Position numbers and translations under genes: made by a program | Notes under the pieces: generated by a model | What the model was told of the DNA's origin: nothing | Database searches by the model: none | What the model saw: the letters and a program-made list of their open reading frames with translations, nothing else | Shown: piece by piece, positions 5,298 through 18,677 of the stretch | Numbering within the stretch: the first letter of the stretch is position 1 | Layout: every line of letters starts with the position of its first letter | Assembly: GCA_028715415.1 (NCBI GenBank) | Contig: JAQURX010000004.1 | Span: 20,933-84,932 of the forward strand | DNA: 64,000 nt | Source of the DNA: Candidatus Omnitrophota bacterium | GTDB lineage: Bacteria > Omnitrophota > Gorgyraeia > Gygaellales > Profunditerraquicolaceae | Direction of reading: 5' to 3'

Positions 5298-6626
5298 TTA
5301 CAGATTTTTTAGAAAACTTGGGATTCCAGCTGCTTCCTTGGGGCCAACGATAACATTTAAACCACAAGCCTCCTCCAATTCTCCGCTTAAAACAGCAACA
5401 TATCCGGGAATGATAATTTTCTTATGGGTTACAGCTTCTTTAACGCCAAATTTATCAATTGATTGGCTGATCTTCTCTGGCGTAAACTTTTCCGCCGCCC
5501 AGGCAGTCAAAACAGACATGCCTTCAGTATCAACGCTTAAGATATAAGACGGAATTTTACTCGCCTCTACTTCGCCAAGCACAGTATAATAGCTAAGAGA
5601 AAAGTTAGTGGTAATCAACACAGGTGATTTATCATTAGCAGCGCCTATAGGATAAAGTTTTGGCTCTATCTGTAAAGGCTTTTGCGGGTCAGTATAGATA
5701 TTTTGCCGCAAAGTCAGGAGAGAAAGTGTTTGCCAGGAATCAATTCCTTTTAACAAAACAATCCCGGCGTATTTTGAGATATAAGTCGCAGCCTCCATCG
5801 CTTCCTCAAATGGGTCAGTATTCTCAACAATCGTTAAAAGCGGGTAGCCCAAAGAACGATTAGACTTTTTTAAAGCCTGTCTCCTAACCTGGGTAAGGTC
5901 CCATAATTTTTCTGAAATTGGTTTTACTTCGGTATCAATCACTAAATCGCTAATGCCTTGCTTGGCTAATTCTTGAGTTAAAACAGACACCTCTTCTAAA
6001 TTCGGAGCAGAAACCACCAATGCTGATTTATACTCTTTTGCCAAAAGCCCGATTTCAGAAAGATTGCCTTTAACCGCACGGTAAATTAAGGGATTCTTCC
6101 CTTTTAAAATTTCAAGAGCCTGCTTTAAAGCTGATAAATCATTACTCATCAATACAAGAGGAAGATTGATATTGCTTGTTACAATCTTTAACACATCAAT
6201 AAATCTTTTTGCGTCGGTATTTTGCTTGAGGGCAATAAGATTAACATTCAACTGCTGTCCGACCCTTTCAAACGCAAGCTCTTTGATTTTTGAAAGTTTC
6301 TTCTTAATCTCATCATCCTTAATGTTATCTTCTATAATAAAACCGATTCCGCAAGGATTCCTGAACTTCTCTTCGTGCCGGAACATTACTGTTTCATTCC
6401 CAATATCTATTTTGGTTTCACCGGTTCCAATACTAATTAATTTTATTGGAGGCTGAGCTGACGCTTCCAAAGCATCCTTAGCCTCTTTGCTTAAATATGG
6501 GCATTTTTCAATCGCCACAGCTTTCTTTGCCAACTGCATGGCAAAGGCAAGGCAAGTAGCAAAGCCACATTCACGGCAATTGGTTTTTGGTAATAACTTA
6601 TAGATGTCAAGTCCTGAAAGCGCCAT
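5298..6626 (-). CDS. acsC: Corrinoid iron-sulfur protein large subunit (AcsC-like) with N-terminal [4Fe-4S] C-x2-C-x4-C-x16-C motif
   Basis: MALSGLDIYKLLPKTNCRECGFATCLAFAMQLAKKAVAIEKCPY is the canonical AcsC N-terminus. 442 aa. Confidence 0.75.
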   Translation of the reverse strand: MALSGLDIYKLLPKTNCRECGFATCLAFAMQLAKKAVAIEKCPYLSKEAKDALEASAQPPIKLISIGTGETKIDIGNETVMFRHEEKFRNPCGIGFIIEDNIKDDEIKKKLSKIKELAFERVGQQLNVNLIALKQNTDAKRFIDVLKIVTSNINLPLVLMSNDLSALKQALEILKGKNPLIYRAVKGNLSEIGLLAKEYKSALVVSAPNLEEVSVLTQELAKQGISDLVIDTEVKPISEKLWDLTQVRRQALKKSNRSLGYPLLTIVENTDPFEEAMEAATYISKYAGIVLLKGIDSWQTLSLLTLRQNIYTDPQKPLQIEPKLYPIGAANDKSPVLITTNFSLSYYTVLGEVEASKIPSYILSVDTEGMSVLTAWAAEKFTPEKISQSIDKFGVKEAVTHKKIIIPGYVAVLSGELEEACGLNVIVGPKEAAGIPSFLKNL

Positions 6627-6628
6627 TT

Positions 6629-7048
6629 TTACTCTCCGGTTAGATTAAATAAATTTAGTGGGTTGGATTTAAATAATTCCTTCGCAAAATTCTCAGAAAC
6701 CTTGTGTCCTTTTATTTTATTCAGCTGTTCAATCAAGCCTTCCTTTAAACTTATTTCAATATTTCTCTTACTATCTAAATTCTTAAATAGAATACGGATT
6801 CTTTTCCCATCAATCTTCTGGATATTTCCTTTGCCATACGTAGCCCCGCTTGAAAGCTGCAAGCCGTCAATAAGGCAAGATTTAGGCCTTTGATTTGCCC
6901 CCCAAACCAAAACATCCAAACCAAAATACTTTTTGCACTTTAATTTCTTTAACGCAATATTTCCGGCCATAAGCCCTAAAACAAGATATGGGCCCAAGTG
7001 GCCATGGAATTTAACAGCTTCCTTAAGAGTTATCCTATTGTTGTTCAT
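6629..7048 (-). CDS. FmdE/FwdE-domain family protein (FHGH motif), Cys-less variant
   Basis: VKFHGHLGPYLVLGLMAG resembles the FHGHxCPG signature of the formylmethanofuran dehydrogenase subunit E-like family, but Gly replaces the Cys. 139 aa. Confidence 0.45.
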   Translation of the reverse strand: MNNNRITLKEAVKFHGHLGPYLVLGLMAGNIALKKLKCKKYFGLDVLVWGANQRPKSCLIDGLQLSSGATYGKGNIQKIDGKRIRILFKNLDSKRNIEISLKEGLIEQLNKIKGHKVSENFAKELFKSNPLNLFNLTGE

Positions 7049-7056
7049 TTTAAGCT

Positions 7057-7725
7057 TTATCCTTTATTAATTAGGCTGGCTAGATAACCGGCACCAAAAC
7101 CATTATCGATATTTACAACTGCCACACCCGGAGAACAACTGTTTAACATTGTTAGTAGTGCTGACAGGCCACCAAAACTTGCTCCATACCCACAGCTTGT
7201 TGGAACGCTCACCACAGGACAACTCACCAAACCGCTTACCAAGCTTGCCAAAGCCCCTTCCATCCCTGCTACAATTACAATAACTTTGGCCTTACGTAAA
7301 ACATCCATATGGTGCATTAATCTATGCACCCCGGCAACTCCAACATCAAAAAGCCTTACTACCAGATTACCCATTATTTCCAAAGTAACAACTGCCTCTT
7401 GAGCTACTGGAATATCAGATGTACCGGCAGACATAACCACAACTAAACCTTTTTTTAAGTTCTTACCATGATTATAAAATCCGAGCTTTGCTAAAGAATC
7501 GTACTTAAGGCAGGTAATTGATTTCTTAAGATAAGTAAAAGTGCTTTTATCTAATCTGGTAAGAAGAAGGTCCTGCTTATTCTTAAGCAGTTCCTTACAG
7601 ATTGATTTAATATTTTCTTTTGTTTTTCCGGGGCAATATACAACTTCCGGAAAACCTTTACGCTTTTGCCTGTCTATATCTACCTTAGCAAAACCAAGGT
7701 CAGAGAAACCATGCCGAGAAACCAT
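7057..7725 (-). CDS. larB: LarB-like (PurE/AIR-carboxylase-related) protein; possible nickel-pincer cofactor biosynthesis carboxylase
   Basis: The C-terminal 150 aa form a PurE-like fold (SAGTSDIPV ... VAGMEGALASLVSGL ... PVVSVPTS). An extra N-terminal domain of about 70 aa is present, as in LarB. Confidence 0.55.
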   Translation of the reverse strand: MVSRHGFSDLGFAKVDIDRQKRKGFPEVVYCPGKTKENIKSICKELLKNKQDLLLTRLDKSTFTYLKKSITCLKYDSLAKLGFYNHGKNLKKGLVVVMSAGTSDIPVAQEAVVTLEIMGNLVVRLFDVGVAGVHRLMHHMDVLRKAKVIVIVAGMEGALASLVSGLVSCPVVSVPTSCGYGASFGGLSALLTMLNSCSPGVAVVNIDNGFGAGYLASLINKG

Positions 7726-7732
7726 TGTTTAT

Positions 7733-8041
7733 TTATCCCCGGAAAATAATAAAAAGCAAAACAAGAACTATCAGGGTGGATAATATATAAAAATCGTTAA
7801 AATAAATAAAATCACTAAATTTATCGCTAAAGGAATATTCTACCTCTTTTTCGCTCTTTGGCGAATGCATACGGCCTTGCCTCTGAAAAGAAGTTACTTG
7901 TTCCCGCTTAAAACGAAGGTACACTCCCCCAATTTTATACGCCGGGATAGAACCCTTTTCAGCCAACTCCATTACATCCTTCTCAGAAACGCCTAAGATT
8001 AAAGAAACATCTCTTACAGTCAAAAGTTTTTCTTCTGCCAT
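7733..8041 (-). CDS. Small HTH_17 (excisionase/MerR-like) DNA-binding domain protein with C-terminal transmembrane anchor
   Basis: LLTVRDVSLILGVSEKDVMELAEKGSIPAYKIGGVYLRFKREQV matches the HTH_17 pattern. C-terminal FYILSTLIVLVLLFIIF is a hydrophobic helix. Confidence 0.5.
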   Translation of the reverse strand: MAEEKLLTVRDVSLILGVSEKDVMELAEKGSIPAYKIGGVYLRFKREQVTSFQRQGRMHSPKSEKEVEYSFSDKFSDFIYFNDFYILSTLIVLVLLFIIFRG

Positions 8042-8065
8042 TTTGATTTACCTTACTTGATGATA

Positions 8066-8572
8066 TTATTTTTCAATTTTTCCCGAAGCAACCCAACTGT
8101 CAATTGCTTTTCTTTCAAATCTCCAGTCGCTTCCTTCTTTACTACCGGGCATTCTTCCTGAATTAGCCCACTCCATGATTGAATTAAGGTCAACTTCCAA
8201 ATACCGCGCTAATTCTTCCGAATTCATCAGGTCATGAAGCATTAAACATTTACCTTCGAGTATCGCTCCCTCTGCAACATTCAATTTAGCAGGACAGATA
8301 TCTCCTTCAACAAGAGCGGAAGGCAAAAGCGTTAATCTTTCTTTAGCTACTATCTTTCCTTTAACTTTGCCTCCAATAATGATATTATCTCCGACGATAT
8401 CAGCAAACACTGTTGCGGTATTCCCGATTGTCAAATTACCTTTAGTCTCTAAATTTCCTTCAAATTTACCATTTATGCGCAGGTTGACCGGGTCCTTAAA
8501 AACCAAACTTCCCTGCATAGAAGCATCAACATCTAAAGTCTTTTCTTCAACTTTCTTTTTACTAAACGCCAT
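8066..8572 (-). CDS. Bactofilin-domain protein fused to a C-terminal HTH_17 DNA-binding domain
   Basis: The central section (INGKFEGNLETKGNLTIGNTATVFADIVGDNIIIGGKVKGKIVAKERL ... VEGDI) has the G/V/I-periodic beta-helix pattern of bactofilins (DUF583). The C-terminus SEELARYLEVDLNSIMEWANSGRMPGSKEGSDWRFERKAIDSWV is an HTH_17. Confidence 0.55.
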   Translation of the reverse strand: MAFSKKKVEEKTLDVDASMQGSLVFKDPVNLRINGKFEGNLETKGNLTIGNTATVFADIVGDNIIIGGKVKGKIVAKERLTLLPSALVEGDICPAKLNVAEGAILEGKCLMLHDLMNSEELARYLEVDLNSIMEWANSGRMPGSKEGSDWRFERKAIDSWVASGKIEK

Positions 8573-8587
8573 AGCTAACCTCCTTTT

Positions 8588-9034
8588 TTAGGAGTTGTGT
8601 TCGTGTTTATCTTCACTAAAAACTCTTTTCTCAAAATGCCTAAACAAAAATAACACTATCAAAGAAATTACAGTAGCCACAAAACTTGCGCGAATAAAAC
8701 CCACTCCAACCGCAAGCCCTATTGCAGAAGCCACCCATAAACTTGCCGCCGTAGTTAATCCACGGACACCCTCTGTATCTCTCATTATAGTGCCAGCACC
8801 TAAGAAACCGATACCAGTGATAACTCCAGCAGCTATACGGGAAGGGTCTGCCTTATCTTTATATATATCAAAAACATATAAAGATGTCAACATTATAAGA
8901 CAAGAGCCCATTGTTACTAAAATATGCGTCCTGAGCCCTGCGTTTCTACGCTTAAATTGACGCTCCAAACCAATAAGCCCACCGAGAAAAACCGATAAAA
9001 GCAACCTCAATATAATCTGATAATCTGATAACAT
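8588..9034 (-). CDS. mgtC: MgtC/SapB family membrane protein
   Basis: GGLIGLERQFKRRNAGLRTHILVTMGSCL and GVITGIGFLGAG match MgtC family conserved blocks. 148 aa. Confidence 0.7.
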   Translation of the reverse strand: MLSDYQIILRLLLSVFLGGLIGLERQFKRRNAGLRTHILVTMGSCLIMLTSLYVFDIYKDKADPSRIAAGVITGIGFLGAGTIMRDTEGVRGLTTAASLWVASAIGLAVGVGFIRASFVATVISLIVLFLFRHFEKRVFSEDKHEHNS

Positions 9035-9047
9035 AAGTCTTCCTCCG

Positions 9048-10022
9048 CTAATTTAGTTCTGCGTTTAAATATAAACCAGATTTATGCCCTTTTTTATATA
9101 AACGATAGCCAAAACCGGCAACCATAGCCGCATTATCCATACAAAGCAATTTAGGAGGGAAAAAACATTTAACGCCCTGTGCCTTCGCCGACTCAAAGAA
9201 TTTATTTCTAAGACGGTTATTCGCAGCAACGCCACCTCCAATAACCAGCGTTTTTATTTTTTTAACCTTACAGGCTAAAAAAGCTTTGCTTATCAATGAA
9301 TCAATAACAGTTTCCTGAAAAGACGCGGCAATATCTAATTCTTGATCTTTATGTTTCTGATAATAATACAATACCGCGGTTTTGATCCCGCTAAAACTAA
9401 AATTTAAAGGCTTTTTAGTCCCTGAACAACGGAATTTAATATTCTTTGGGTTTCCCTTTTGCGCAATTTTTTCAATAATCGGCCCCCCGGGATAGCCTAA
9501 ACCCAAAATCTTTGCTACTTTATCAAAAGCCTCTCCACAGGCATCATCCTGAGTTTCTCCTAGAATCTCAATTTTATCAAAATCTTTTACATAAAATAAG
9601 CTGGTATGCCCTCCGGAGACAACCAAAGCAATAAATGGAAGCTTAATATTTTCCCCATTTAAAAAGTTAGCATAGATATGGCTATGCACATGGTTAACCC
9701 CAAGCAAAGGCCTCCCAAGGCTCATACTAACTGACTTTGCAAAGGTTATCCCTATTAAAAGCGAACCTAAAAGCCCTGGAGTATTTGTTACGCTTATTAA
9801 ATCAATATCCTTTAAGCTAACCCCGGACTCCTCTATTGCGCAATTGGCGACTTTAGCAATTGTTTCCAGTTGCGCCCTAAAAGCAATCTCAGGAACAATG
9901 CCCCCGTATTTCTTATGCTCTTTTAAACTAGAATATACTATATTAGATAAAATCTTTCTGCCTTCCGAAACAACAGAAACAGAAGTTTCATCGCACGAAG
10001 ACTCAATACCTAAAGTATACAT
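9048..10022 (-). CDS. tsaD: tRNA N6-adenosine threonylcarbamoyltransferase TsaD (Kae1/Gcp)
   Basis: MYTLGIESSCDETSVSVV... plus the HxxxH region (HVHSHIYA). 324 aa. Confidence 0.9.
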   Translation of the reverse strand: MYTLGIESSCDETSVSVVSEGRKILSNIVYSSLKEHKKYGGIVPEIAFRAQLETIAKVANCAIEESGVSLKDIDLISVTNTPGLLGSLLIGITFAKSVSMSLGRPLLGVNHVHSHIYANFLNGENIKLPFIALVVSGGHTSLFYVKDFDKIEILGETQDDACGEAFDKVAKILGLGYPGGPIIEKIAQKGNPKNIKFRCSGTKKPLNFSFSGIKTAVLYYYQKHKDQELDIAASFQETVIDSLISKAFLACKVKKIKTLVIGGGVAANNRLRNKFFESAKAQGVKCFFPPKLLCMDNAAMVAGFGYRLYKKGHKSGLYLNAELN

Positions 10023-10025
10023 TTA

Positions 10026-10823
10026 TTAATTCCTTTTTAAATCCGAAACAAAAACAAATTTAAATCCTTCTTTTGCCATCTCAGGCATCGAAGCCTTTAA
10101 AACTTCCAAAGTAACCTTACGGTCATGGCCGATACCGATTGCTTTTCCTTGCGCCATAGCCTTGATTTTAAGTTTATAAAGCTGCTTTTTTATATATTCG
10201 GCTTCTTCAATATTATCCAAAAAGATATCCCTCTTAGCAAAGCTCAAACCAATTTTTTTAGCCATTGCAGGGCAAACTGATTTTCCTGTAACATAGCTAT
10301 CCAAAAAATACAAATGCCTTTTCTTTAAATCGCTCATGACAATTTCCGTTGTTTTTGCATCCTCTGTAGCTAATGAACCCATATGATTAGAAACACCTTT
10401 TGCATAACCTATGCTTGCTAAATCCTTATCTAGCACATCCAAGATTTTTTCTTTTGAAGAATTAACCATTATAGTATTTTTCTCAAGCCTAACCTTTTCA
10501 TGCGGCTGCATAGGAAGATGCAAAATAACCTCAAAACCACAGCTGTTTAATTCTTCGGCTATTTGTTTTGTAAAAGCAAGATTAGGCAAAACTGCGCCTG
10601 TAATAGGATATTTAAATTCTTTCAAAATATGAGCATTATTTAAATTATAACCCCAATCATCAATTACAATCGCAATTTTACCTTTAAAAACAACCGGTTT
10701 TACTTCTTTAGGCTTAGCAATCTCCTTGGGCTTTTGCCTACTGGTCAACAAAGAAATACCCAGCATAAAAATAATACCAATCAAGACTACAATTGTAATT
10801 TTGTATTTTTTATCTTTTTCCAT
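10026..10823 (-). CDS. Divergent polysaccharide deacetylase family protein (YibQ-like), N-terminal TM anchor
   Basis: KIAIVIDDWGYN motif and the size typical of the YibQ/DUF610 family. Confidence 0.6.
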   Translation of the reverse strand: MEKDKKYKITIVVLIGIIFMLGISLLTSRQKPKEIAKPKEVKPVVFKGKIAIVIDDWGYNLNNAHILKEFKYPITGAVLPNLAFTKQIAEELNSCGFEVILHLPMQPHEKVRLEKNTIMVNSSKEKILDVLDKDLASIGYAKGVSNHMGSLATEDAKTTEIVMSDLKKRHLYFLDSYVTGKSVCPAMAKKIGLSFAKRDIFLDNIEEAEYIKKQLYKLKIKAMAQGKAIGIGHDRKVTLEVLKASMPEMAKEGFKFVFVSDLKRN

Positions 10824-10829
10824 AAAAAC

Positions 10830-12125
10830 CTACTGCTTCTTATTATTTTCTTTATATAACTTAAGTGCTTTTAAAATATCAACCGCGCGCATAAGCTGAT
10901 TATCCAAATGATAATCGTAACCAGAGATATTTTTATCCTTGCCTTCCTTCTCTTTTTCTTTCTTTTCAATTTCCTCAAAAACATCCTGAGGCTTTACCAA
11001 TTTTTCATCTTTATCATCGGCAAGTTCAATTTTGCCAGCCTCAACAATAATATCAGGGACAACTCCTTTTCCATGGATAATCTTACCTGAAGGAGTAAAA
11101 TATTTGCTTGTCGTAAGCCTTAAAGCCGAACCATCGCCCAAGGGGACAACTGTTTGGACAGAACCTTTTCCGAAAGATGTCTTTCCGACAATAATCGCAC
11201 GCTTATAATCCTGAAGGCAACCGGCAACAATTTCACTTCCTGAAGCAGAGCCTTCATTAATCAATACAATCATAGGGATTCCTGTTATTGGCTTTGCAAC
11301 CCTTGAATAGAATTTCATATCCTGATCAGGTTTGCGCCCTTTTGTATATACAATCAACTTCCCTTTTTCAACAAACTCACCGGAAACATTAACCGCAACA
11401 TCCAGAAGCCCTCCGGGATTGTTGCGCAGATCAAGGATTAATGCATTCATTCCTTCTTTAGATAATTTTTCTAAAGCTGCCTTGATATCCCTTGCGGTGT
11501 TCTCTCTAAACTCAATTAAGCGGATATATCCAATCCCGTCTTCAAGAATCTTAGCCTCTTTTATATCCCTAATCTTAATTACATCCCGCACAATCCTGAT
11601 TTCTAAAAGCTTCTTCTCCGATTCTCTTAAAATTGTCAAGACGACTGCTTCCCCCGGCTTTCCGCGCATTTTTTTTACTGCTTCAGTTAAAGTAAGGTCC
11701 CGGGTCAAATCCTTATTAATCTTAACAATCCTATCTCCTGCTTTAATGCCAGCTTTCCAGGCAGGAGTATCTTCAATGGGGGTAACGACTGTCAGTAAGC
11801 CGTCTTTAATTGTTATTTCAATCCCCAACCCTCCAAACTTTCCTTCTGTATCAACTTTTAATTCATTATAAGTATCCGGATCCATAAACTGGCTATGCGC
11901 ATCCAAAGAAGCAAGCATTCCCTTTAAAGCGCCGTATATAAGGTCTTTTGGTTTTGTTTCATCAACATAATCGGATTGTATAAGCGCTAACGAATCGGCA
12001 AATAATTCAACCTGACGGTATAATTCATCTTTTTTCTTTTTCTCAGTAGCTGACAAAGCAAAGGAATAAAAAGAAAAAGACAAAACTAAAATCAAAGCAA
12101 TAAAACAAAAAAGTTTCTTACGCAT
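10830..12125 (-). CDS. ctpA: Carboxyl-terminal processing protease (S41 family, PDZ domain)
   Basis: Signal peptide, PDZ region, and the S41 catalytic block LINEGSASGSEIVAGCLQD ... KTSFGKGSVQ. Confidence 0.8.
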   Translation of the reverse strand: MRKKLFCFIALILVLSFSFYSFALSATEKKKKDELYRQVELFADSLALIQSDYVDETKPKDLIYGALKGMLASLDAHSQFMDPDTYNELKVDTEGKFGGLGIEITIKDGLLTVVTPIEDTPAWKAGIKAGDRIVKINKDLTRDLTLTEAVKKMRGKPGEAVVLTILRESEKKLLEIRIVRDVIKIRDIKEAKILEDGIGYIRLIEFRENTARDIKAALEKLSKEGMNALILDLRNNPGGLLDVAVNVSGEFVEKGKLIVYTKGRKPDQDMKFYSRVAKPITGIPMIVLINEGSASGSEIVAGCLQDYKRAIIVGKTSFGKGSVQTVVPLGDGSALRLTTSKYFTPSGKIIHGKGVVPDIIVEAGKIELADDKDEKLVKPQDVFEEIEKKEKEKEGKDKNISGYDYHLDNQLMRAVDILKALKLYKENNKKQ

Positions 12126-13557
12126 TATCCATCCTCCGTTTTAACATATCAGGCACGACTTTAGGATTGGCTTTCCCTTTTGTTTTCTTCATTACTTGGC
12201 CTACCAGAAACATCAAAGCATTAGCCTTACCTTGCTTAAAATCATCCACCGATTTCTTGTTTTCTCTGATAACCTCATCAATAGTGCTTTCAAGGCTGCC
12301 CATATCAGAAATCTGAAATAAATTTTTGTCCTGAATAATTTTTGAGGATGGCGTTCCCGAAGAAATTGATTCGCTGAAAACCGCCTTTGCGGTAAGGTTT
12401 GAAATCTTGCCTTCCTCAACAAACTTAATTAAATTAATAAACTCTTCATCCCCTCCGGGGATATTAAGATCTTCCGGGTTGCAATTCAAATTATTCGCCT
12501 CCTGAAACAAAGGCCCGGTTGACCAATTTACTACTATCTTCTTATCCTTACCCGGATATAAATTCATACGTTTTTCTGTTATATCGGCAAATTTTTTAAA
12601 AGCGGTTACTACCTTCGCATCATATTCAGATAAACCGTATTCTTTTATAAAACGCGCGCTTTTCTCTTTCGGTAGTTCAGGTATAGTTTTCCGGATAGCT
12701 TCTACTAAATCACTCTCAATAACAAAAGCAGTTAAATCCGGCTCGGGAAAATAACGGTAGTCTTTTGCTTCTTCTTTAGTGCGCATTGGAACTGTGCATA
12801 AAGACTTAGTATCCCAAGCCATAGTCTGCTGAATAATCTTTTCACCATTTTCTAAGGCTTCAATCTGCCGCTTTATCTCATAATCAAGAGCGTCTCGCAC
12901 CCCCTTAAAGGAGTTCATGTTTTTTAATTCTGTCTTTGTCCCTAATTTTGTTTCACCCTTTTTTCTAACTGAAACATTAGCATCGCAACGCAATGAGCCT
13001 TTCTCCATATCGCAGTCGGAAACTTCCAGATATTCAAGAATGCTTTTTAGCAAGCTTAAATATTCATATGCTTCCTGCGGAGAATGGATATCGGGTTCGC
13101 TAACTATTTCTAAAAGAGGAATTCCAGTGCGATTGAAATCAACCAAACTCACATTGTCTTTATGAATCAATTTCCCAGCATCTTCCTCCAGATGAGCGCG
13201 GGTTATCCCGATACGCACAGGCTTTCCCTCAACATCTATATCCAAAAAGCCACCGCTTGAAATCGGCTGGTCATACTGAGAAATCTGATAGTCCTTCGGC
13301 AGGTCAGGATAAAAATAATTCTTTCTGTCAAACTTTGTATGTTTCTGAATCTTGCAATTTAATGCTAAGCCAACCTTAATCGCAAATTCAAAAGCTTTTT
13401 TGTTTAAAACCGGAAGTGTCCCCGGAAACCCGAGGCAAATTGGGCAAACCTGCGTATTAGGTTTTGCTCCAAATTCCGTTGAGCAGCCGCAAAAAGCTTT
13501 CGTCTGAGTTTTTAAGTGAGTGTGAACTTCTAAACCAATAACCGGTTCATATTCCAT
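12118..13557 (-). CDS. gatB: Asp-tRNA(Asn)/Glu-tRNA(Gln) amidotransferase subunit B
   Basis: MEYEPVIGLEVHTHLKTQTKAFCGC... is the canonical GatB N-terminus. 479 aa. Confidence 0.95.
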   Translation of the reverse strand: MEYEPVIGLEVHTHLKTQTKAFCGCSTEFGAKPNTQVCPICLGFPGTLPVLNKKAFEFAIKVGLALNCKIQKHTKFDRKNYFYPDLPKDYQISQYDQPISSGGFLDIDVEGKPVRIGITRAHLEEDAGKLIHKDNVSLVDFNRTGIPLLEIVSEPDIHSPQEAYEYLSLLKSILEYLEVSDCDMEKGSLRCDANVSVRKKGETKLGTKTELKNMNSFKGVRDALDYEIKRQIEALENGEKIIQQTMAWDTKSLCTVPMRTKEEAKDYRYFPEPDLTAFVIESDLVEAIRKTIPELPKEKSARFIKEYGLSEYDAKVVTAFKKFADITEKRMNLYPGKDKKIVVNWSTGPLFQEANNLNCNPEDLNIPGGDEEFINLIKFVEEGKISNLTAKAVFSESISSGTPSSKIIQDKNLFQISDMGSLESTIDEVIRENKKSVDDFKQGKANALMFLVGQVMKKTKGKANPKVVPDMLKRRMDNA

Positions 13558-13559
13558 TA

Positions 13560-15005
13560 TTATAAATTTAACTTTGGCTTCTGTTTATACCACGAAGCAC
13601 TTTGTTCATAATTAAAACCTACCCTGAGAAGCATCTCTTCATCAAAAGCCTTTCCTAGAATTTGCAGGCCAACCGGAAGATTATTCTTGGTAAAACCGCA
13701 AGGAACTGAAATTGCAGGAATCCCTGCAAGATTAGCCGAAATAGTATATATATCCGAAAGGTACATCTTAAGAGGGTCTTCCATTTTTTCTCCGATTTTA
13801 AAAGCTTCTGTCGGGGAAGTAGGAGTAATAATACAATCGAACTCCTTGAAAACAGCGTCAAAATCCTGCTTAATCAGGTTGCGCACTTTTAAAGCGCGCA
13901 AATAATAAGCATCATAGTAACCATGGGAAAGAGCAAAAGTCCCCAATATAATCCTTCTTTTAGCCTCCTGGCCAAAACCAATGCCGCGAGTCTTCATATA
14001 CATCTCAATTAAAGATTCTGTCTTCTCGCGAAAGCCATACTGCACACCATCAAACCTCGCTAAGTTTGAACTTGCTTCAGCTGTAGCAACAATATAGTAA
14101 ACCGCAACTGCGTATTCTGTATGCGGAAGGCTTACCTCTTTAAACTGCGCTCCTTTTGCTTTTAAAGAATTAATTGCCTCATCCAAAACACTCTTTACAC
14201 TTGGGTCAAGCCCTTCAATAAAGTATTCCTTAGGAAGAGCTATCTTCAAACCTTTGATATCTTTTCCTAAAGATTTGGTATAATCAGGCACATCAATATT
14301 AGCTGATGTAGAATCAAACGGATCATGCCCGGAAATCACATTCATCAGTAAAGCAGAATCTTGAACGTCCTTAGTTAAAGGGCCAATCTGGTCAAGGCTG
14401 GAAGCAAAAGCAATTAAGCCATACCGGGAAACTCTTCCGTAAGTCGGCTTAAGGCCGACGACCCCGCAAAAAGAAGCCGGCTGACGGATAGAACCACCTG
14501 TATCAGAACCTAAAGCCATGATTGCTTCATCCGCAGCCACAGCTGCAGCAGATCCTCCTGAAGAACCTCCCGGGACACAACCTAGATTCCAAGGATTACT
14601 AGTCGGCCCAAAATGGGAATTTTCAGTAGAGGAGCCGAAAGCAAACTCATCCATATTCGTTTTGGCAGGCAAGATTACCGCACCGGCGCCTTTTAGCTTA
14701 TTAATTACCGTTGCGTCATATGGAGGCTTAAAAGACTCTAAAATTTTTGAACAGCATTCGGTATTGAAACCTTCGGTACAAATATTATCTTTAATTGAAA
14801 CAGGTATGCCTTTAAGGCACCCTTCGCCTGATGATTTAGGAGGATTAGAATCCAAAACACCGCTATCTAACCTTACATAAGCATGGACTTTTTCATCCGA
14901 TTCTTTAATCCTGTCTGTTAACGAACGCAGGATTTCCCCGGAAGTTAGTTGATTATTAGATAATTTATCTCGTAGCTCGTGAGCAGTTAGTTTAAAATAT
15001 TCCAT
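13560..15005 (-). CDS. gatA: Glu-tRNA(Gln) amidotransferase subunit A (amidase signature)
   Basis: Amidase signature [13 protein letters not shown]. 481 aa. Lies between gatC and gatB. Confidence 0.9.
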
Positions 15006-15434: not shown

Positions 15435-18400
15435 ATGCATAAAAGCATTAAAAACAAACAACCAAATTACAAATTAACTAAAAACGGCGAATTTATTATT
15501 GATAACTACAACCACGCAAAGCCGTTTGCTAATTTCTTCCCCGGGATTGCCGGAAAATATGGCATACCGATGTGGGCTTTTTATGTAAACCGCGGGCAAG
15601 GAATCTGTAGCTTTGGGACTAAAGACAAAGACCATGCAATTTTAGAGTTCTTTCCAGCAAACAAAGCCTGGGCTACTACTTCAATCTTAGGTTTCCGGAC
15701 ATTTATAAAAATCCTACGAGGCAACAATACGCTATTTTACGAGCCATTCCATAATGGAGCAACAAACTTAAATTTTGACCTCTCCAATAGAATGATCATT
15801 ACTTCTCAAGGCATGTCCTTAGAAGAAACTAACCAAACCTTGGGATTAAAGGTTAAGGTAGAATTTTTTACTATACCAAATGATTCCTACGCTGGCCTAG
15901 GCAGAATAATATCAATTCAGAACCTAAAGAAAACCCCAATTAATATGCAGATTCTAGACGGCCTACCGCAGATACAGCCGTTTGGAATGAATAGCTGGCT
16001 TGTCAAAGAAATGAGCCGTACTATAGAAGCATGGATGAATGTAGAAAATTTAGAAAACAAGGCTCCTTTTTTTAGGCTTGCGGTTGACCCACAAGACAGG
16101 CCGGAAGTAATTCACATAAAAGAAGGAAATTTTTATTTAGGCTACTATCATGATGGCAAAAATACCAAAATCATAAAACCTATAGTTAATCCATATCATA
16201 TCTTTGGTGAAATTACCGACTTCTCTTTCCCAAAAGAATTCTTAAAAACAAAGAAATTTGGCTATCCAAAGAATGAATTTGCAAATGGGATAACCCCCTG
16301 TGCATTCTCTCTATTTGATATTAACCTATCCTCAAACAAAACAATTGTGTTTAACTCAATAGCTGGTTACATGCGTAGCGTGGAAGCTTTAAACAAATCA
16401 ATAGATAGGTTATCTACCCTTGAATACCTGACAAACAAAAAAGAAGAAAACAGAAACATAATTAATGAGCTAAAGAATGACATCATAACCAACTCAGACT
16501 CAAATGAATTCAATCATTACGTTACGCAAACTTACCTTGATAATATTATGCGCGGAGGATATCCTTTAGTCTTTGAATCTAAAAATCAGAAATCGGTCTT
16601 CTATCTTTACTCCCGCAAGCATGGAGACTTAGAAAGGGATTACAATAGGTTCCAACTGCAACCAACGTATTTTTCTCAAGGAAATGGTAATTATCGTGAC
16701 GTAAACCAAAATAGGCGCATGGACGTATGGTTCAATCCTGAAGTTAAAGATGAAATTTTAATTAACCTAATTAATCTTCTGCAAACTGACGGGTTCAATC
16801 CCTTAGTAGTAAAAGGGCTGAATTTTGTATTAACCAACCCTGAAACTTTAAAATCAAAATTATCTAGGATTATTTCTGAAACTACCAAGATAGACTCTTT
16901 AATCTCTTTTCTAAAAAAGCCTTTTTCTCCCGGAGACGTTATACTTTTCTTAGAAGACCATTCAATCAAGATTGCTTCTTCTTATGATGAGTTGTTAAAC
17001 ACTATTATATCCTCCTCATCCAAAATCAATGAAGCTGAGCATGGCGAAGGTTTTTGGACTGACCACTGGACATACAACTTGGATCTTATAGAGAATTATT
17101 TGAAAGTCTACCCGGAAGATTTATGTAATATTATTTTTGACAAGCGTGTTTTTACCTTCTTTGATAACACTGAAACAGTCAAGCACCGCTCTGAAAAATA
17201 TGTCCTTTACAATGGGCTTCCAAGGCAATTACATTCAGTGGGGCTTGATATTGCAAAAAAAGATTTGATTAAAAAACGCTCCACACTTGCCCATGTAGTA
17301 AGAAGCAATTTCGGGGAAGGAGAAATTTACGAAACGACGCTTATCAATAAACTACTGTGCTTAGCAGTAAACAAACTCTCTTCAATAGATCCTTTTGGGA
17401 TAGGCATTGAAATGGAAGCCAATAAACCAAACTGGTATGACTCTTTAAATGGCCTTCCTGCCCTCTTTGGATCTTCCAGCTGCGAAACTTTTGAATTAAA
17501 GAGGCTTTGTGAATTCTTAAAAGAAGCCCTTGCTAAAACAAACCACAAGAAGATTACTATCACTGAAGAGATTTATCATTTCTTAAACTCGCTAAATAAA
17601 TTACTTGAAGACTATCTAACAAGCAATGGGACAGACAAAGACCTTATCTATTGGGATAAAAGCAATACTTTAAAAGAAAGCTACAGAGATAGCACTAAAC
17701 TGGGGCTTAGCGGGGCTGAATTAGACATTAGCTCTGATGAATTACTCCGCTTTCTTAACAATTCAATCACTAAACTTAATTCGGGCCTTAAAAAAGCGTT
17801 TGATAAAAGTGAGCAGATGTATTACTCGTATTTTATCAATGAGGTTACTGAGTTTGATACAATAAAAGATAACTCTATAAAGCCTAAGAAATTTAAACAA
17901 ATTAAATTGCCTTTCTTTTTAGAATCCCAAGTCCATGCATTAAGGACTTTGGACGACAAAACTTCAATAACAAACCTATCAAAAGCCGTATCCAAAGGAA
18001 GCCTTTTTGATAAGAAATTGAAGCATTATAAAGTTAACAGCCCTTTAAAAGAAATGCCTGAAGAAATTGGAAGAACAAGGATATTTACACCCGGCTGGCT
18101 TGAAAATGAATCTATATGGATGCACATGGAATATAAATATCTTCTCGAGCTGTTAAAAAAAGGACTGTTCGAAGATTTTTACCGGGATTTCAAGAATGTA
18201 CTAATCCCCTTCCAATCCCCTAAAAGATACGGCAGGAGCATTTTAGAGAATTCCTCATTTATTGTTAGCAGCGCTTATCCAGACAAAAACTTACATGGTA
18301 ACGGTTTTGTTGCCAGGCTTTCAGGCTCAACTGCAGAATTTCTTCAGATATGGCTCATCATGAATACGGGGTTAAATCCCTTCTTTCTTAATGAAAAAGG

Positions 18401-18677
18401 TGAGCTAAATTTACGATTTTCTCCGATACTAGCCGGATGGTTATTTGACAAGAAAAATAGGACATATACTTTTAATTTTTTAAGTAAAGTTAAAGTTTGC
18501 TACCATAACTTAAAAAAGAAGGACACATTTGGGATTAATGCAGCAAAGATTAAAAAGATTATCTTTATTGATCAGAAAGAAACCTTGGTAGAATTGAATA
18601 CTAATGTTATTCCCGCCCCCTATGCCAATCAAATAAGAAAGCGCCAAATCCAGAAAATAGATATTTATTTAGATTAA
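15435..18677 (+). CDS. Large (1080 aa) cytoplasmic protein, probably a GH94-like (alpha/alpha)6 glycoside phosphorylase/hydrolase superfamily member. It is the only plus-strand gene in the window.
   Basis: AAGGAA RBS 9 nt upstream of the ATG. The N-terminal KPFANFFPGIAGKYGIPMWAFYVNRGQGICSFG resembles the conserved N-terminal block of cellobiose/chitobiose phosphorylases (..PW.N.L.N....GYSF). The central NGNYRDVNQNRR and GEGFWTDHWTYNLDL segments resemble six-hairpin glycosidase motifs. No signal peptide. Confidence 0.35.
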   Translation: MHKSIKNKQPNYKLTKNGEFIIDNYNHAKPFANFFPGIAGKYGIPMWAFYVNRGQGICSFGTKDKDHAILEFFPANKAWATTSILGFRTFIKILRGNNTLFYEPFHNGATNLNFDLSNRMIITSQGMSLEETNQTLGLKVKVEFFTIPNDSYAGLGRIISIQNLKKTPINMQILDGLPQIQPFGMNSWLVKEMSRTIEAWMNVENLENKAPFFRLAVDPQDRPEVIHIKEGNFYLGYYHDGKNTKIIKPIVNPYHIFGEITDFSFPKEFLKTKKFGYPKNEFANGITPCAFSLFDINLSSNKTIVFNSIAGYMRSVEALNKSIDRLSTLEYLTNKKEENRNIINELKNDIITNSDSNEFNHYVTQTYLDNIMRGGYPLVFESKNQKSVFYLYSRKHGDLERDYNRFQLQPTYFSQGNGNYRDVNQNRRMDVWFNPEVKDEILINLINLLQTDGFNPLVVKGLNFVLTNPETLKSKLSRIISETTKIDSLISFLKKPFSPGDVILFLEDHSIKIASSYDELLNTIISSSSKINEAEHGEGFWTDHWTYNLDLIENYLKVYPEDLCNIIFDKRVFTFFDNTETVKHRSEKYVLYNGLPRQLHSVGLDIAKKDLIKKRSTLAHVVRSNFGEGEIYETTLINKLLCLAVNKLSSIDPFGIGIEMEANKPNWYDSLNGLPALFGSSSCETFELKRLCEFLKEALAKTNHKKITITEEIYHFLNSLNKLLEDYLTSNGTDKDLIYWDKSNTLKESYRDSTKLGLSGAELDISSDELLRFLNNSITKLNSGLKKAFDKSEQMYYSYFINEVTEFDTIKDNSIKPKKFKQIKLPFFLESQVHALRTLDDKTSITNLSKAVSKGSLFDKKLKHYKVNSPLKEMPEEIGRTRIFTPGWLENESIWMHMEYKYLLELLKKGLFEDFYRDFKNVLIPFQSPKRYGRSILENSSFIVSSAYPDKNLHGNGFVARLSGSTAEFLQIWLIMNTGLNPFFLNEKGELNLRFSPILAGWLFDKKNRTYTFNFLSKVKVCYHNLKKKDTFGINAAKIKKIIFIDQKETLVELNTNVIPAPYANQIRKRQIQKIDIYLD

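What the first reader, a model, noticed from the sequence alone, without database searches (positions are those of the whole stretch)
7733..8572. Tandem HTH_17 proteins with different anchors: one membrane-tethered, one fused to a bactofilin polymer domain
Two adjacent genes each carry an excisionase-type HTH_17 DNA-binding module. In 7733..8041 it is N-terminal and followed by a single C-terminal TM helix. In 8066..8572 it is C-terminal to a complete bactofilin beta-helix domain. A bactofilin-to-DNA-binding fusion is not a standard annotated architecture as far as I know. It suggests a cytoskeletal filament that tethers DNA (chromosome or plasmid positioning, or a polar landmark) together with a membrane-anchored paralogue. 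Known bactofilins act as scaffolds for ParA/ParB/PadC in Myxococcus; that parallel motivates a DNA-organising role. MgtC (8588..9034) and LarB (7057..7725) flank the pair in the same orientation with gaps of 7 to 24 bp, so all four may be co-transcribed.
Basis: partly seen in the sequence, partly recalled or inferred. Interest (0 to 1): 0.6.

Follow-up and report, generated by a model that had tools for sequence, protein, structure and literature searches.

The report
Omnitrophota bactofilin fused to winged helix
A cytoskeletal polymer protein (bactofilin) with a DNA-binding-type winged-helix domain fused to its end, followed by a small membrane-anchored protein with the same kind of domain, is a real, highly conserved and apparently undescribed gene pair of the uncultured phylum Omnitrophota. 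It probably ties the membrane skeleton to the chromosome or to a partner protein, although the key DNA-reading residue is replaced.

Summary
On the minus strand, 8066..8572 encodes a 168-aa protein with an N-terminal membrane-targeting-like peptide (MAFSKKK), a complete bactofilin beta-helix and a C-terminal HTH_17 winged helix. 7733..8041 encodes a 102-aa protein with an HTH_17 winged helix and a C-terminal transmembrane tail. The fusion is not a frameshift: more than 2,600 protein clusters (90% identity) share it, and every one that carries an organism name is Omnitrophota. It is the most conserved gene of its neighbourhood. The tail-anchored partner lies directly downstream in 78/78 close loci where sequence continues and in 7/8 divergent loci. 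MgtC and LarB are frequent but dispensable neighbours. Both winged helices are closest to RacA and BldC. However, the arginine that both need for DNA binding is Glu/Asp in 141/150 fusion proteins, and the domain is net acidic. My best reading (about 0.4) is a polymer-based membrane tether for the nucleoid, built like RocS/RacA. The main rival (about 0.3) is a winged helix repurposed as a protein adaptor. I found no literature on this architecture. It is a new variant of a known kind, of moderate to high interest.

The parts
8066..8572 (-). Gene for the 168-aa bactofilin-winged-helix fusion protein
   Evidence: ORF. Pfam Bactofilin 83.1 bits plus HTH_17 41.7 bits. A GGAGG Shine-Dalgarno sequence lies 7 nt upstream of the ATG (read). 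2,573 homologues for the single-sequence query; 2,616 clusters at E<=1e-10 for the profile query.
8549..8572 (-). Codons 1-8, MAFSKKKV: N-terminal membrane-targeting-like peptide
   Evidence: Disordered in the model (pLDDT<50 for aa 1-9). Position 3 is Phe in 117/120 close homologues, and positions 4-6 are mostly K/R. The published global bactofilin MTS consensus is MFSKKKK, and Caulobacter BacA has MFSKQAKS (PMC12448750).
8243..8539 (-). Bactofilin beta-helix, aa 12-110
   Evidence: AF2 pLDDT 91-98. Foldseek hits to BacA 2n3d and T. thermophilus bactofilin 6rib, target TM 0.68-0.78. phmmer to 2n3d at E 3.3e-6. L105 aligns with the polymerisation residues BacA F130 and TtBac F105, and is L/F/I/M/V in 150/150.
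8087..8230 (-). C-terminal winged helix (HTH_17, MerR/RacA/BldC-like), aa 115-162, joined to the beta-helix by only 3 residues
   Evidence: Pfam and TIGR01764 hits. AF2 elements E115-117, H118-125, H129-138, E144-146, E149-153, H154-162. Profile hits to BldC (E 1.6e-4) and RacA (E 8e-4). Foldseek hits to BldC, RdfS, RacA and Xis. The linker is 3 aa in this clade and 9-17 aa in others.
7733..8041 (-). Gene for the 102-aa tail-anchored winged-helix partner
   Evidence: ORF. HTH_17 41.5 bits. 1,040 homologues, and all that carry an organism name are Omnitrophota. It lies directly downstream of the fusion gene in 78/78 close loci where sequence continues and in 7/8 divergent loci.
7868..8026 (-). 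Winged helix of the partner, aa 6-58
   Evidence: AF2 elements H9-16, H20-29, E35-37, E41-44, H46-58. Best Foldseek match is the RacA DNA-binding domain 5i44 (E 4.5e-3, 24% identity), then BldC and Pukovnik Xis.
7739..7831 (-). Conserved juxtamembrane helix (aa 71-81, SDFIYFNDFY) and C-terminal transmembrane helix (aa 83-101) of the partner
   Evidence: Hydropathy 2.4. 120/120 homologues have a C-terminal segment with KD>1.6 starting near aa 84. N82, D83 and Y85 are invariant; D77, F78, Y80, F81 and F84 are at least 90% conserved. The motif and tail are kept in 7 divergent partners. AF2 pLDDT 90-96.
8588..9034 (-). MgtC/SapB-family membrane protein: frequent upstream neighbour, not an obligatory part of the module
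   Evidence: Pfam MgtC 146 bits. Present upstream in most of the 80 close loci (tblastn hit at >=70% coverage in 73; absent in L002, L003, L011 and L055), sometimes overlapping the fusion gene by 2 nt. Present in 4/8 divergent loci.

Best explanation
The two genes form one conserved Omnitrophota module that most likely works as a polymer-based tether between the cytoplasmic membrane and the nucleoid.

Shown by sequence and models:
- The first protein has all the parts of a membrane-associated bactofilin: an MTS-like N-terminus, an intact beta-helix and a conserved hydrophobic polymerisation residue.
- A RacA/BldC-type winged helix is attached 3 residues after the last rung of the beta-helix.
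- The second protein is a tail-anchored membrane protein. It has a second winged helix of the same type and a conserved juxtamembrane motif.

Inferred:
- The bactofilin polymerises on the inner face of the membrane.
[quoted passage not shown] Each tail-to-tail junction would therefore bring two winged helices together, so the filament would display an array of paired winged helices about every 6 nm.
- These helices, together with the partner's winged helix, would hold DNA at the membrane with low sequence specificity. Binding would use the conserved basic and aromatic wing residues and backbone contacts, with avidity coming from the polymer.

The architecture has the same three parts as RocS or RacA (MerR-type winged helix, self-assembly domain, membrane or pole anchor), with a bactofilin in place of the coiled coil. 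It is not an excisionase and probably not a sequence-reading transcription factor.
For: - Architecture and fold.
- Membrane targeting: MAF[K/R/S]KK is conserved (F3 in 117/120) and matches the published MTS consensus MFSKKKK.
- Polymerisation: the BacA F130 / TtBac F105 equivalent is hydrophobic in 150/150. C-terminal mVenus fusions of BacA still assemble (PMC12448750).
- Nearest relatives of both winged helices are DNA-architectural proteins: BldC E 1.6e-4 and the chromosome anchor RacA E 8e-4. RacA is the top fold match of the partner.
- Wing residues that contact the DNA backbone are kept: the RacA R30 equivalent is K/R in 147/150, W150 is in 149/150, and position 151 is R/K in 146/150.
- RocS has the same logic: a wHTH, an oligomerisation domain, and a weak membrane anchor that needs oligomerisation (PMC11500499).
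- A core, non-mobile role is indicated by strong conservation. All 240 listed top hits of the two searches carry both domains, and every organism name given is Omnitrophota. Median identity is 77%, against 64% for TsaD, and the fusion is the most conserved gene in 79/80 loci. The HTH domain (0.83) is as conserved as the beta-helix (0.82) in the close clade.
- The pair is kept when the flanking genes change.
Against: - No DNA binding is shown.
- The recognition helix lacks both base-contacting residues of RacA and BldC. K15/K26 is S/N/G/A and never basic. R19/R30 is E (107) or D (34) of 150. R19A and R30A abolish DNA binding in those proteins.
- E126, D128 and E134 form a conserved acidic stretch on the turn and recognition helix, which is the usual DNA-facing side in RacA and BldC. 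The domain has a net charge of -2.5 to -2.8.
- A conserved acidic residue suggests selection for a different ligand.
- The 3-residue linker in this clade might hinder the tail-to-tail interface.
- No ParB, ParA or centromere-like feature is linked to the locus.
- MerR-like folds that bind proteins rather than DNA exist among the fold matches (CbpM 3ucs and Rpp 6hn7).
Confidence: 0.4

Rival explanations
1. The winged helices are protein adaptors rather than DNA binders. The conserved acidic face of the fused HTH_17 docks a basic partner. The best candidate is the basic wing and linker or the juxtamembrane motif of the tail-anchored protein. The partner would then be the built-in membrane client or receptor of the bactofilin scaffold, as PbpC is for BacA. 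The module would organise something at the envelope, such as cell-wall or division proteins, not DNA.
For: - Glu/Asp is conserved at the position of the essential DNA-reading Arg, and no basic residue sits at the second base-contact position.
- The fused domain is net -2.7, while the partner has a basic stretch after its wing (RFKREQ..FQRQGR).
- The two genes are strictly co-conserved.
- The partner's juxtamembrane motif is invariant and well placed to touch a membrane-bound polymer.
- Known bactofilin clients are bitopic membrane proteins bound through short cytoplasmic peptides near the C-terminal interface.
- Neighbours in several loci are envelope proteins: S41/PDZ proteases, YibQ-type deacetylase and a SPOR protein.
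- MerR-like folds that bind proteins are among the fold matches (CbpM, Rpp).
Against:
- The bactofilin already has its own MTS-like peptide, so it does not obviously need a membrane receptor.
- The wing residues that contact the DNA backbone are conserved in both proteins.
- The partner keeps the RacA K15-equivalent lysine (K21, at least 90%).
- The great majority of HTH_17 domains bind DNA (my own knowledge).
Confidence: 0.3
2. The module is a regulatory switch of the BacR type. One or both winged helices act as transcription factors whose access to DNA is controlled by sequestration on the membrane-bound bactofilin polymer. In Bacillus subtilis, BacE and BacF hold the HTH regulator BacR at the membrane and reduce its DNA binding.
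For: - BacR is an HTH protein co-encoded with bactofilins. Bactofilins recruit it to the membrane, and it is released to the nucleoid on cell-wall stress (PMC13649987).
- Here an HTH gene is likewise always adjacent to the bactofilin gene.
- BldC-like small winged helices are true regulators.
Against: - A covalently fused and a permanently membrane-inserted HTH cannot shuttle to the nucleoid without proteolysis.
- There is no DUF4004 match.
- The recognition helix lacks the base-reading residues.
- Intergenic gaps of 7-24 bp leave no room for an operator next to the pair.
- The promoter-like site count is no higher than in shuffled sequence: 20 against 21.1.
Confidence: 0.12
3. The HTH_17 proteins are excisionases (recombination directionality factors), or the MAD1 component of a MADS defence system, and belong to a mobile or defence island.
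For: - JGI names many homologues 'excisionase family DNA binding protein'.
- There are weak hits to TIGR01764 excise, NCBIfam MADS1, PADLOC mad1 and PHROG excisionase families.
Against: - The MADS1 scores are 36-44 bits against a cut-off of 80.
- The PADLOC and PHROG hits are 16-28 bits and cover only the generic domain.
- No integrase or defence gene is nearby.
- The locus sits in housekeeping synteny (GatAB, TsaD, CdhD) conserved across 80 species.
- The fusion is more conserved than TsaD.
Confidence: 0.02
4. The fusion is an assembly or frameshift artefact that merges a bactofilin gene with a separate HTH gene.
Against: - The same continuous ORF occurs in 142 species-level genome loci, 80 of which were fetched and examined.
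- A profile of divergent members finds 2,616 clusters (90% identity) at E<=1e-10; all 240 listed top hits of the two searches carry both Pfam domains, from NCBI, JGI, ENA and Logan assemblies.
- One of these is a closed 1.14-Mb genome.
- The junction is conserved in frame, and linker length varies by clade.
Confidence: 0.01

Closest known systems
RocS (Streptococcus pneumoniae) and RacA (Bacillus subtilis): chromosome-membrane or chromosome-pole tethers
   Same: They have the same three functional parts: a MerR-type winged helix, a self-assembling domain, and a membrane or pole anchor whose weak affinity needs oligomerisation. RacA's DNA-binding domain is a significant sequence match (E 8e-4) and the top fold match of the partner.
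   Different: Here the assembly domain is a bactofilin beta-helix, not a coiled coil. The domain order is reversed (anchor, polymer, wHTH). A second, tail-anchored wHTH protein is part of the unit. The base-reading Arg and Lys of RacA are replaced by Glu/Asp and small residues. No DUF536 and no DivIVA link.
Canonical bactofilins (Caulobacter BacA, Thermus TtBac) with the client PbpC
   Same: Pfam domain, beta-helix fold, MTS-like N-terminus and a conserved hydrophobic residue at the C-terminal polymerisation interface. The partner is a bitopic membrane protein, like PbpC.
   Different: Canonical bactofilins have short, disordered, poorly conserved C-terminal tails. This one has a folded domain there that is as conserved as the core. 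The partner has no enzymatic domain.
Myxococcus xanthus BacNOP-PadC-ParAB
   Same: A bactofilin scaffold that positions chromosome-segregation machinery (PMC5703909, listed).
   Different: In Myxococcus the link to DNA is indirect: the BacP tail binds PadC, which binds ParA, while ParB binds parS. Here a DNA-binding-type domain is fused directly to the bactofilin, and no par gene is linked.
Bacillus subtilis BacR (YhbD, DUF4004) with BacE/BacF
   Same: An HTH protein encoded next to bactofilin genes. It is held at the membrane by the bactofilins.
   Different: BacR is soluble, about 210 aa, and belongs to DUF4004. Here one HTH is fused to the bactofilin and the other is membrane-inserted, and both are HTH_17. 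There is no DUF4004 match.
BldC (Streptomyces), a minimal MerR-like winged helix
   Same: Best sequence match (E 1.6e-4) and a close fold match, rmsd 1.1-2.1 A. BldC oligomerises head-to-tail on DNA, which is a precedent for arrays of this domain.
   Different: BldC is a free 68-aa regulator with Lys26 and Arg30 reading bases and a very basic wing. The Omnitrophota domain has Ser/Asn and Glu at those positions and is net acidic.

Membership tests
Bactofilin (PF04519) | Profile match above the curated cut-off over the whole domain | tested here: met
   83.1 bits against a cut-off of 27.9, profile positions 3-97 of 98.
Bactofilin (PF04519) | Right-handed beta-helix fold of about 100 residues | tested here: met
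   AF2 strands span 12-106 with pLDDT 91-98. Foldseek to 2n3d and 6rib, probability 1.00, target TM 0.68-0.78.
Bactofilin (PF04519) | Conserved hydrophobic residue in the C-terminal polymerisation interface (BacA F130 / TtBac F105) | tested here: met
   It aligns with L105. Counts in 150 sequences: L 79, F 57, I 7, M 6, V 1.
Bactofilin (PF04519) | N-terminal membrane-targeting peptide (consensus MFSKKKK) | tested here: met
   MAFSKKK here. F3 in 117/120 and K/R at positions 4-6 in close homologues. Divergent clades have basic but less hydrophobic N-termini.
Bactofilin (PF04519) | Short disordered tails on both sides of the core (canonical architecture) | tested here: not met
   The C-terminal side is a folded, conserved 50-residue winged helix after a 3-residue linker.
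Bactofilin (PF04519) | Nucleotide-independent polymerisation into non-polar filaments | not testable with these tools
   Needs purified protein and electron microscopy.
HTH_17 / MerR-like winged helix (PF12728, TIGR01764) | Profile match above the cut-off and a winged-helix fold | tested here: met
   41.7 and 41.5 bits against a cut-off of 27. TIGR01764 at 29.9 and 32.4 bits against 28.8. AF2 topology and Foldseek hits to BldC, RacA and Xis.
HTH_17 / MerR-like winged helix (PF12728, TIGR01764) | Basic base-contacting residues on the recognition helix (RacA K15 and R19; BldC K26 and R30) | tested here: not met
   Fusion family: S/N/G/A/T/H at the first position, and E 107 / D 34 of 150 at the second. 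The partner keeps the Lys (K21) but has E/D at the Arg position in the close clade; in divergent partners this position is D, R, E or S.
HTH_17 / MerR-like winged helix (PF12728, TIGR01764) | Basic and aromatic wing residues that contact the DNA backbone | tested here: met
   K/R at position 145 in 147/150, W150 in 149/150, R/K at position 151 in 146/150. The partner has K36, R43 and K45 conserved.
HTH_17 / MerR-like winged helix (PF12728, TIGR01764) | Binds DNA | not testable with these tools
   Needs EMSA or fluorescence polarisation.
Excisionase / recombination directionality factor | Encoded with a site-specific recombinase on a mobile element | tested here: not met
   Neighbours are GatAB, S41, YibQ, TsaD, MgtC, LarB, FmdE and CdhD, in the same order in 80 species. 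No integrase.
MADS defence protein MAD1 (NF047737) | Score above the NCBIfam cut-off and a MADS gene context | tested here: not met
   35.8 and 43.9 bits against a cut-off of 80. PADLOC mad1 at 23-26 bits only. No defence genes nearby.
BacR / DUF4004 bactofilin regulator | DUF4004 (PF13171) domain | tested here: not met
   No PF13171 hit at E<=0.01 for either protein.
RocS/RacA-type DNA-membrane tether (functional class, not a homology family) | MerR-type wHTH plus a self-assembly domain plus a membrane or pole anchor in one protein | tested here: met
   All three parts are recognisable by sequence and model. The assembly domain is not homologous to theirs.
RocS/RacA-type DNA-membrane tether (functional class, not a homology family) | Demonstrated simultaneous DNA and membrane binding | not testable with these tools
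   Needs biochemistry or imaging.
Tail-anchored membrane protein (partner) | Single TM helix within about 3 residues of the C-terminus, with no signal peptide | tested here: met
   Hydropathy 2.4 for aa 84-100 of 102. 120/120 homologues. AF2 helix 83-101.

The most novel reading that the evidence does not exclude
Omnitrophota, a phylum of mostly ultra-small uncultured bacteria, use a bactofilin filament that binds DNA directly as their main nucleoid-membrane anchor. This would be a bactofilin 'kinetochore', in which polymerisation creates paired winged helices at tail-to-tail junctions. It would be helped by a tail-anchored winged-helix partner, and would use a non-canonical (acidic recognition helix) mode of DNA contact.
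Probability: 0.3. Interest if true: 0.8.

Novelty: new variant of a known kind. Interest (0 to 1): 0.6.

Why it matters
Bactofilins are known as scaffolds whose clients bind through short peptides or long disordered tails. A folded, conserved nucleic-acid-binding-type domain fused directly to the polymer core would be a new way of coupling this cytoskeleton to a cargo.

If the cargo is DNA, this would be a direct bactofilin-chromosome link. It would also be a convergent counterpart of RocS and RacA, in a phylum with no cultured model and unknown cell biology.

If the cargo is a protein, it would show a winged helix converted into a scaffold adaptor, with a conserved Arg-to-Glu switch.

Either way the pair is one of the most conserved small proteins of the phylum. 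It is a simple, testable two-gene system that can be expressed in a heterologous host.

Tried and rejected
- Frameshift or merge artefact: rejected by conservation.
- Excisionase, prophage or defence island: rejected. Only sub-threshold, generic-domain hits and a housekeeping context.
- MgtC and LarB as functional partners: not supported as obligatory. They are present in only 4/8 and 3/8 divergent loci. The window's co-directional run also includes unrelated housekeeping genes.
- Promoter and terminator scan: uninformative. 20 promoter-like sites against 21.1 expected. No minus-strand terminator-like site between 7057 and 9034.
- Net charge as a test of DNA binding: not decisive. By my count, the aligned stretch of RacA printed is about neutral.
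- Whole-protein phmmer against the PDB found only the bactofilin part. A profile of the HTH alone was needed.
- Foldseek against AFDB50, to look for the same two-domain architecture in UniProt organisms: the library was not available.
- The genome-collection scan used peptide patterns from the window protein, so it reached only close relatives (73-85% identity). Taxonomic breadth beyond them rests on the source names and on eight divergent contigs of unknown taxonomy.
- Magnetosome link: the weak MamR hit (E 0.008) and a MamF_MmsF-family neighbour of the most distant paralogue do not establish a magnetosome cluster. No paper links bactofilins to mad genes.
- Multimer modelling of the fusion with the partner was not possible with the tools.
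Full report
**What is there.**
Both ORFs lie on the minus strand in a tight co-directional run.
- 8066..8572 encodes 168 aa. Pfam Bactofilin scores 83.1 bits (E 1.7e-23, aa 13-109, nearly the whole profile). HTH_17 scores 41.7 bits (aa 115-164). Both are above the curated cut-offs.
- 7733..8041 encodes 102 aa. HTH_17 scores 41.5 bits (aa 6-56). One strongly hydrophobic segment sits at the extreme C-terminus (aa 84-100, mean hydropathy 2.4).
- LarB (NCBIfam 286 bits) and MgtC (146 bits) flank the pair, with gaps of 7, 24 and 15 bp.
- Transcription order is MgtC, bactofilin-HTH, HTH-TM, LarB. A GGAGG ribosome-binding site precedes the fusion gene's ATG.

AlphaFold2 models built on deep alignments agree.
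- Fusion (mean pLDDT 86): disordered N-terminus 1-9, beta-helix 12-110 with pLDDT 91-98, and a beta-alpha-alpha-beta-beta-alpha winged helix 115-162 with pLDDT 79-87.
- Partner (mean pLDDT 79): winged helix 9-58, disordered linker 58-66, a short helix 71-81 and a transmembrane helix 83-101.

**The fusion is real and phylum-wide.**
- The fusion protein has 2,573 homologues at E<=1e-3. The 120 best are 77-100% identical and 166-181 aa long (nearly all 167-168), and all carry both Pfam domains. Every one that carries an organism name is Candidatus Omnitrophota/Omnitrophica.
- An exhaustive search of 1.84 billion cluster representatives found about 25-30 further full-length clusters at 27-56% identity, among about 10,000 plain bactofilins.
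- A profile of those divergent members recovers 2,616 clusters (90% identity) at E<=1e-10. All 120 listed hits carry both domains, and only Omnitrophota names appear.
- One member lies on a closed 1.14-Mb genome.
- This excludes a frameshift or assembly merge. The junction (about 8230..8242) is always in frame. The linker is 3 residues in the window's clade and 9-17 in others.

**Neighbourhood.**
In 80 species-level genome loci the order is S41 peptidase, YibQ-type deacetylase, TsaD, MgtC, fusion, partner, LarB, (FmdE), CdhD, with MgtC, LarB or the deacetylase missing in a few loci.
- The fusion is the most conserved gene of the block. Median identity is 77%, against TsaD 64%, CdhD 68% and the partner 56%. 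It is the highest in 79 of 80 loci.
- The winged helix is as conserved as the beta-helix: 0.83 against 0.82 in the close clade.
- The partner follows directly in 78 of 78 loci where the contig continues.
- Eight divergent loci (27-52% identity to the window protein) have different flanks: SPOR and PDZ genes, GreA, radical SAM. MgtC is present in 4 and LarB in 3. A winged-helix protein with a C-terminal transmembrane tail and the motif D-F-x-Y-F-N-D-F-Y follows directly in 7 of the 8.
- The conserved unit is therefore the pair. The window's long run, GatA-GatB-S41-...-CdhD, is a functionally mixed housekeeping array. Tight spacing to MgtC and LarB says little about function.
- The promoter and terminator scans were uninformative.

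**Bactofilin features.**
- The domain aligns with Caulobacter BacA (2n3d, E 3.3e-6) and the Thermus bactofilin, and matches them by fold.
- L105 aligns with BacA F130 and TtBac F105, the residue whose mutation abolishes polymerisation. It is hydrophobic in all 150 aligned family members.
- The N-terminus MAFSKKK is conserved (Phe3 in 117/120, Lys/Arg at positions 4-6). It matches the published global membrane-targeting consensus MFSKKKK (PMC12448750).
- The protein departs from the canon at the C-terminus. Typical bactofilins have short, disordered, poorly conserved tails there.

**Winged-helix features.**
- A profile of the two winged helices hits BldC (E 1.6e-4), the chromosome-anchoring protein RacA (E 8e-4) and a mycobacteriophage Xis (E 6e-3) in the PDB.
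- Foldseek gives BldC, RdfS, RacA and Xis for the fusion. RacA is the top match for the partner.
- The two domains are 18-27% identical to each other.

Mapping the published DNA contacts gives a mixed picture.
- The wing residues that touch the backbone are conserved. The RacA R30 equivalent is K/R in 147/150, Trp150 is in 149/150, and Arg/Lys151 is in 146/150.
- The two base-contacting residues of the recognition helix are not. RacA K15 / BldC K26 is Ser/Asn/Gly/Ala. RacA R19 / BldC R30 is Glu (107) or Asp (34) of 150. The alanine substitutions R19A and R30A abolish DNA binding in those proteins.
- Glu126 and Asp128 in the turn are also conserved. The fused domain is net -2.5 to -2.8.
- The partner keeps the lysine (K21) but also has Glu/Asp at the arginine position in the close clade. 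That position varies in divergent partners.
- A conserved acidic residue speaks for selection, not decay. It argues against canonical major-groove reading.

**Mechanism.**
My best reading, at about 0.4, is a polymer-based nucleoid-membrane tether.
- The weak N-terminal peptide and polymerisation would place the filament on the membrane, as in BacA.
[quoted passage not shown] Winged helices attached 3 residues after the last rung would therefore come in symmetric pairs at each tail-to-tail junction. This is inference.
- The partner adds a second, membrane-inserted winged helix.
- The three-part logic (MerR-type winged helix, self-assembly domain, weak membrane anchor that needs oligomerisation) is that of RocS and RacA, with a bactofilin in place of the coiled coil.
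- DNA contact would have to be of low specificity, through the wing and backbone, with avidity from the polymer.

The rivals are as follows.
- Protein adaptor (about 0.3). The acidic face binds a basic protein segment, most simply the partner's basic wing and linker or its invariant juxtamembrane motif. The partner would then be a PbpC-like client or receptor.
- BacR-like sequestration switch (about 0.12). This fits poorly with a covalently fused and a membrane-inserted HTH.
- Excisionase or defence role. Excluded by context and sub-threshold scores.

**Novelty.**
I found no paper that combines bactofilin with Omnitrophota, HTH_17, excisionase or MerR-like. Database names are generic: 'polymer-forming cytoskeletal protein' and 'excisionase family DNA binding protein'. 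I rate it a new variant of a known kind: a bactofilin scaffold with a built-in winged-helix cargo domain and a dedicated tail-anchored partner. Function remains inferred, and the decisive experiments are simple biochemistry.

Noticed in passing
L086 1..6850 (JGI contig Ga0105164_10002154): The most distant bactofilin-HTH_17 relative (P0288, from the cluster of P0207, which is 27% identical to the window protein; N-terminus MKFFSQKKR) sits in a cluster of cytoskeletal-type genes. These are an actin-like protein (Pfam Volactin), a ParA/CbiA-type ATPase fused to an AMPK1_CBM domain, a MamF_MmsF-family membrane protein and several unannotated genes. This may be an organelle- or DNA-positioning cluster. 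It is not shown to be a magnetosome cluster.
   Followed up: partly
L084 1..5569 (CAZMGY010000013.1): In a 38%-identical relative the pair is preceded by three genes: a coiled-coil protein of more than 1,295 aa with internal repeats, a SPOR-domain membrane protein, and a TPR/PDZ protein. This suggests a cell-division or envelope context. In this member the RacA R19-equivalent residue is Lys, not Glu.
   Followed up: partly
window 15435..18677 (+): A 1,080-aa ORF with no Pfam match at E<=0.001. It is divergently oriented from the GatA-to-CdhD gene run.
   Followed up: no
window 5298..15005 (-): At least 12 co-directional genes with gaps of a few bp mix unrelated functions: GatA, GatB, S41 peptidase, YibQ-type deacetylase, TsaD, MgtC, the pair, LarB, FmdE and the acetyl-CoA synthase subunit CdhD. 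The order from the S41 peptidase to CdhD is largely conserved across 80 Omnitrophota species; GatA and GatB also precede the S41 peptidase in two divergent loci. In divergent relatives LarB is followed by LarC (Ni_insertion) instead of FmdE/CdhD.
   Followed up: partly
proteins P0189 (417 aa) and P0175 (231 aa): These proteins are made almost entirely of tandem HTH_17 domains (7 and 3 matched stretches, respectively). By eye, most of these copies carry Lys or Arg at the RacA R19-equivalent position, unlike the bactofilin-fused domain.
   Followed up: no
L088 181..1724: Two Hint-domain (Vint/PT-HINT) genes lie divergently upstream of a bactofilin-HTH_17 pair. This pair is otherwise followed by GreA and ACPS.
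   Followed up: no
L089 3202..3558: This is the one divergent locus where the gene after the fusion is not a winged-helix protein. It is instead a 118-aa multi-pass hydrophobic protein with no Pfam hit.
   Followed up: no
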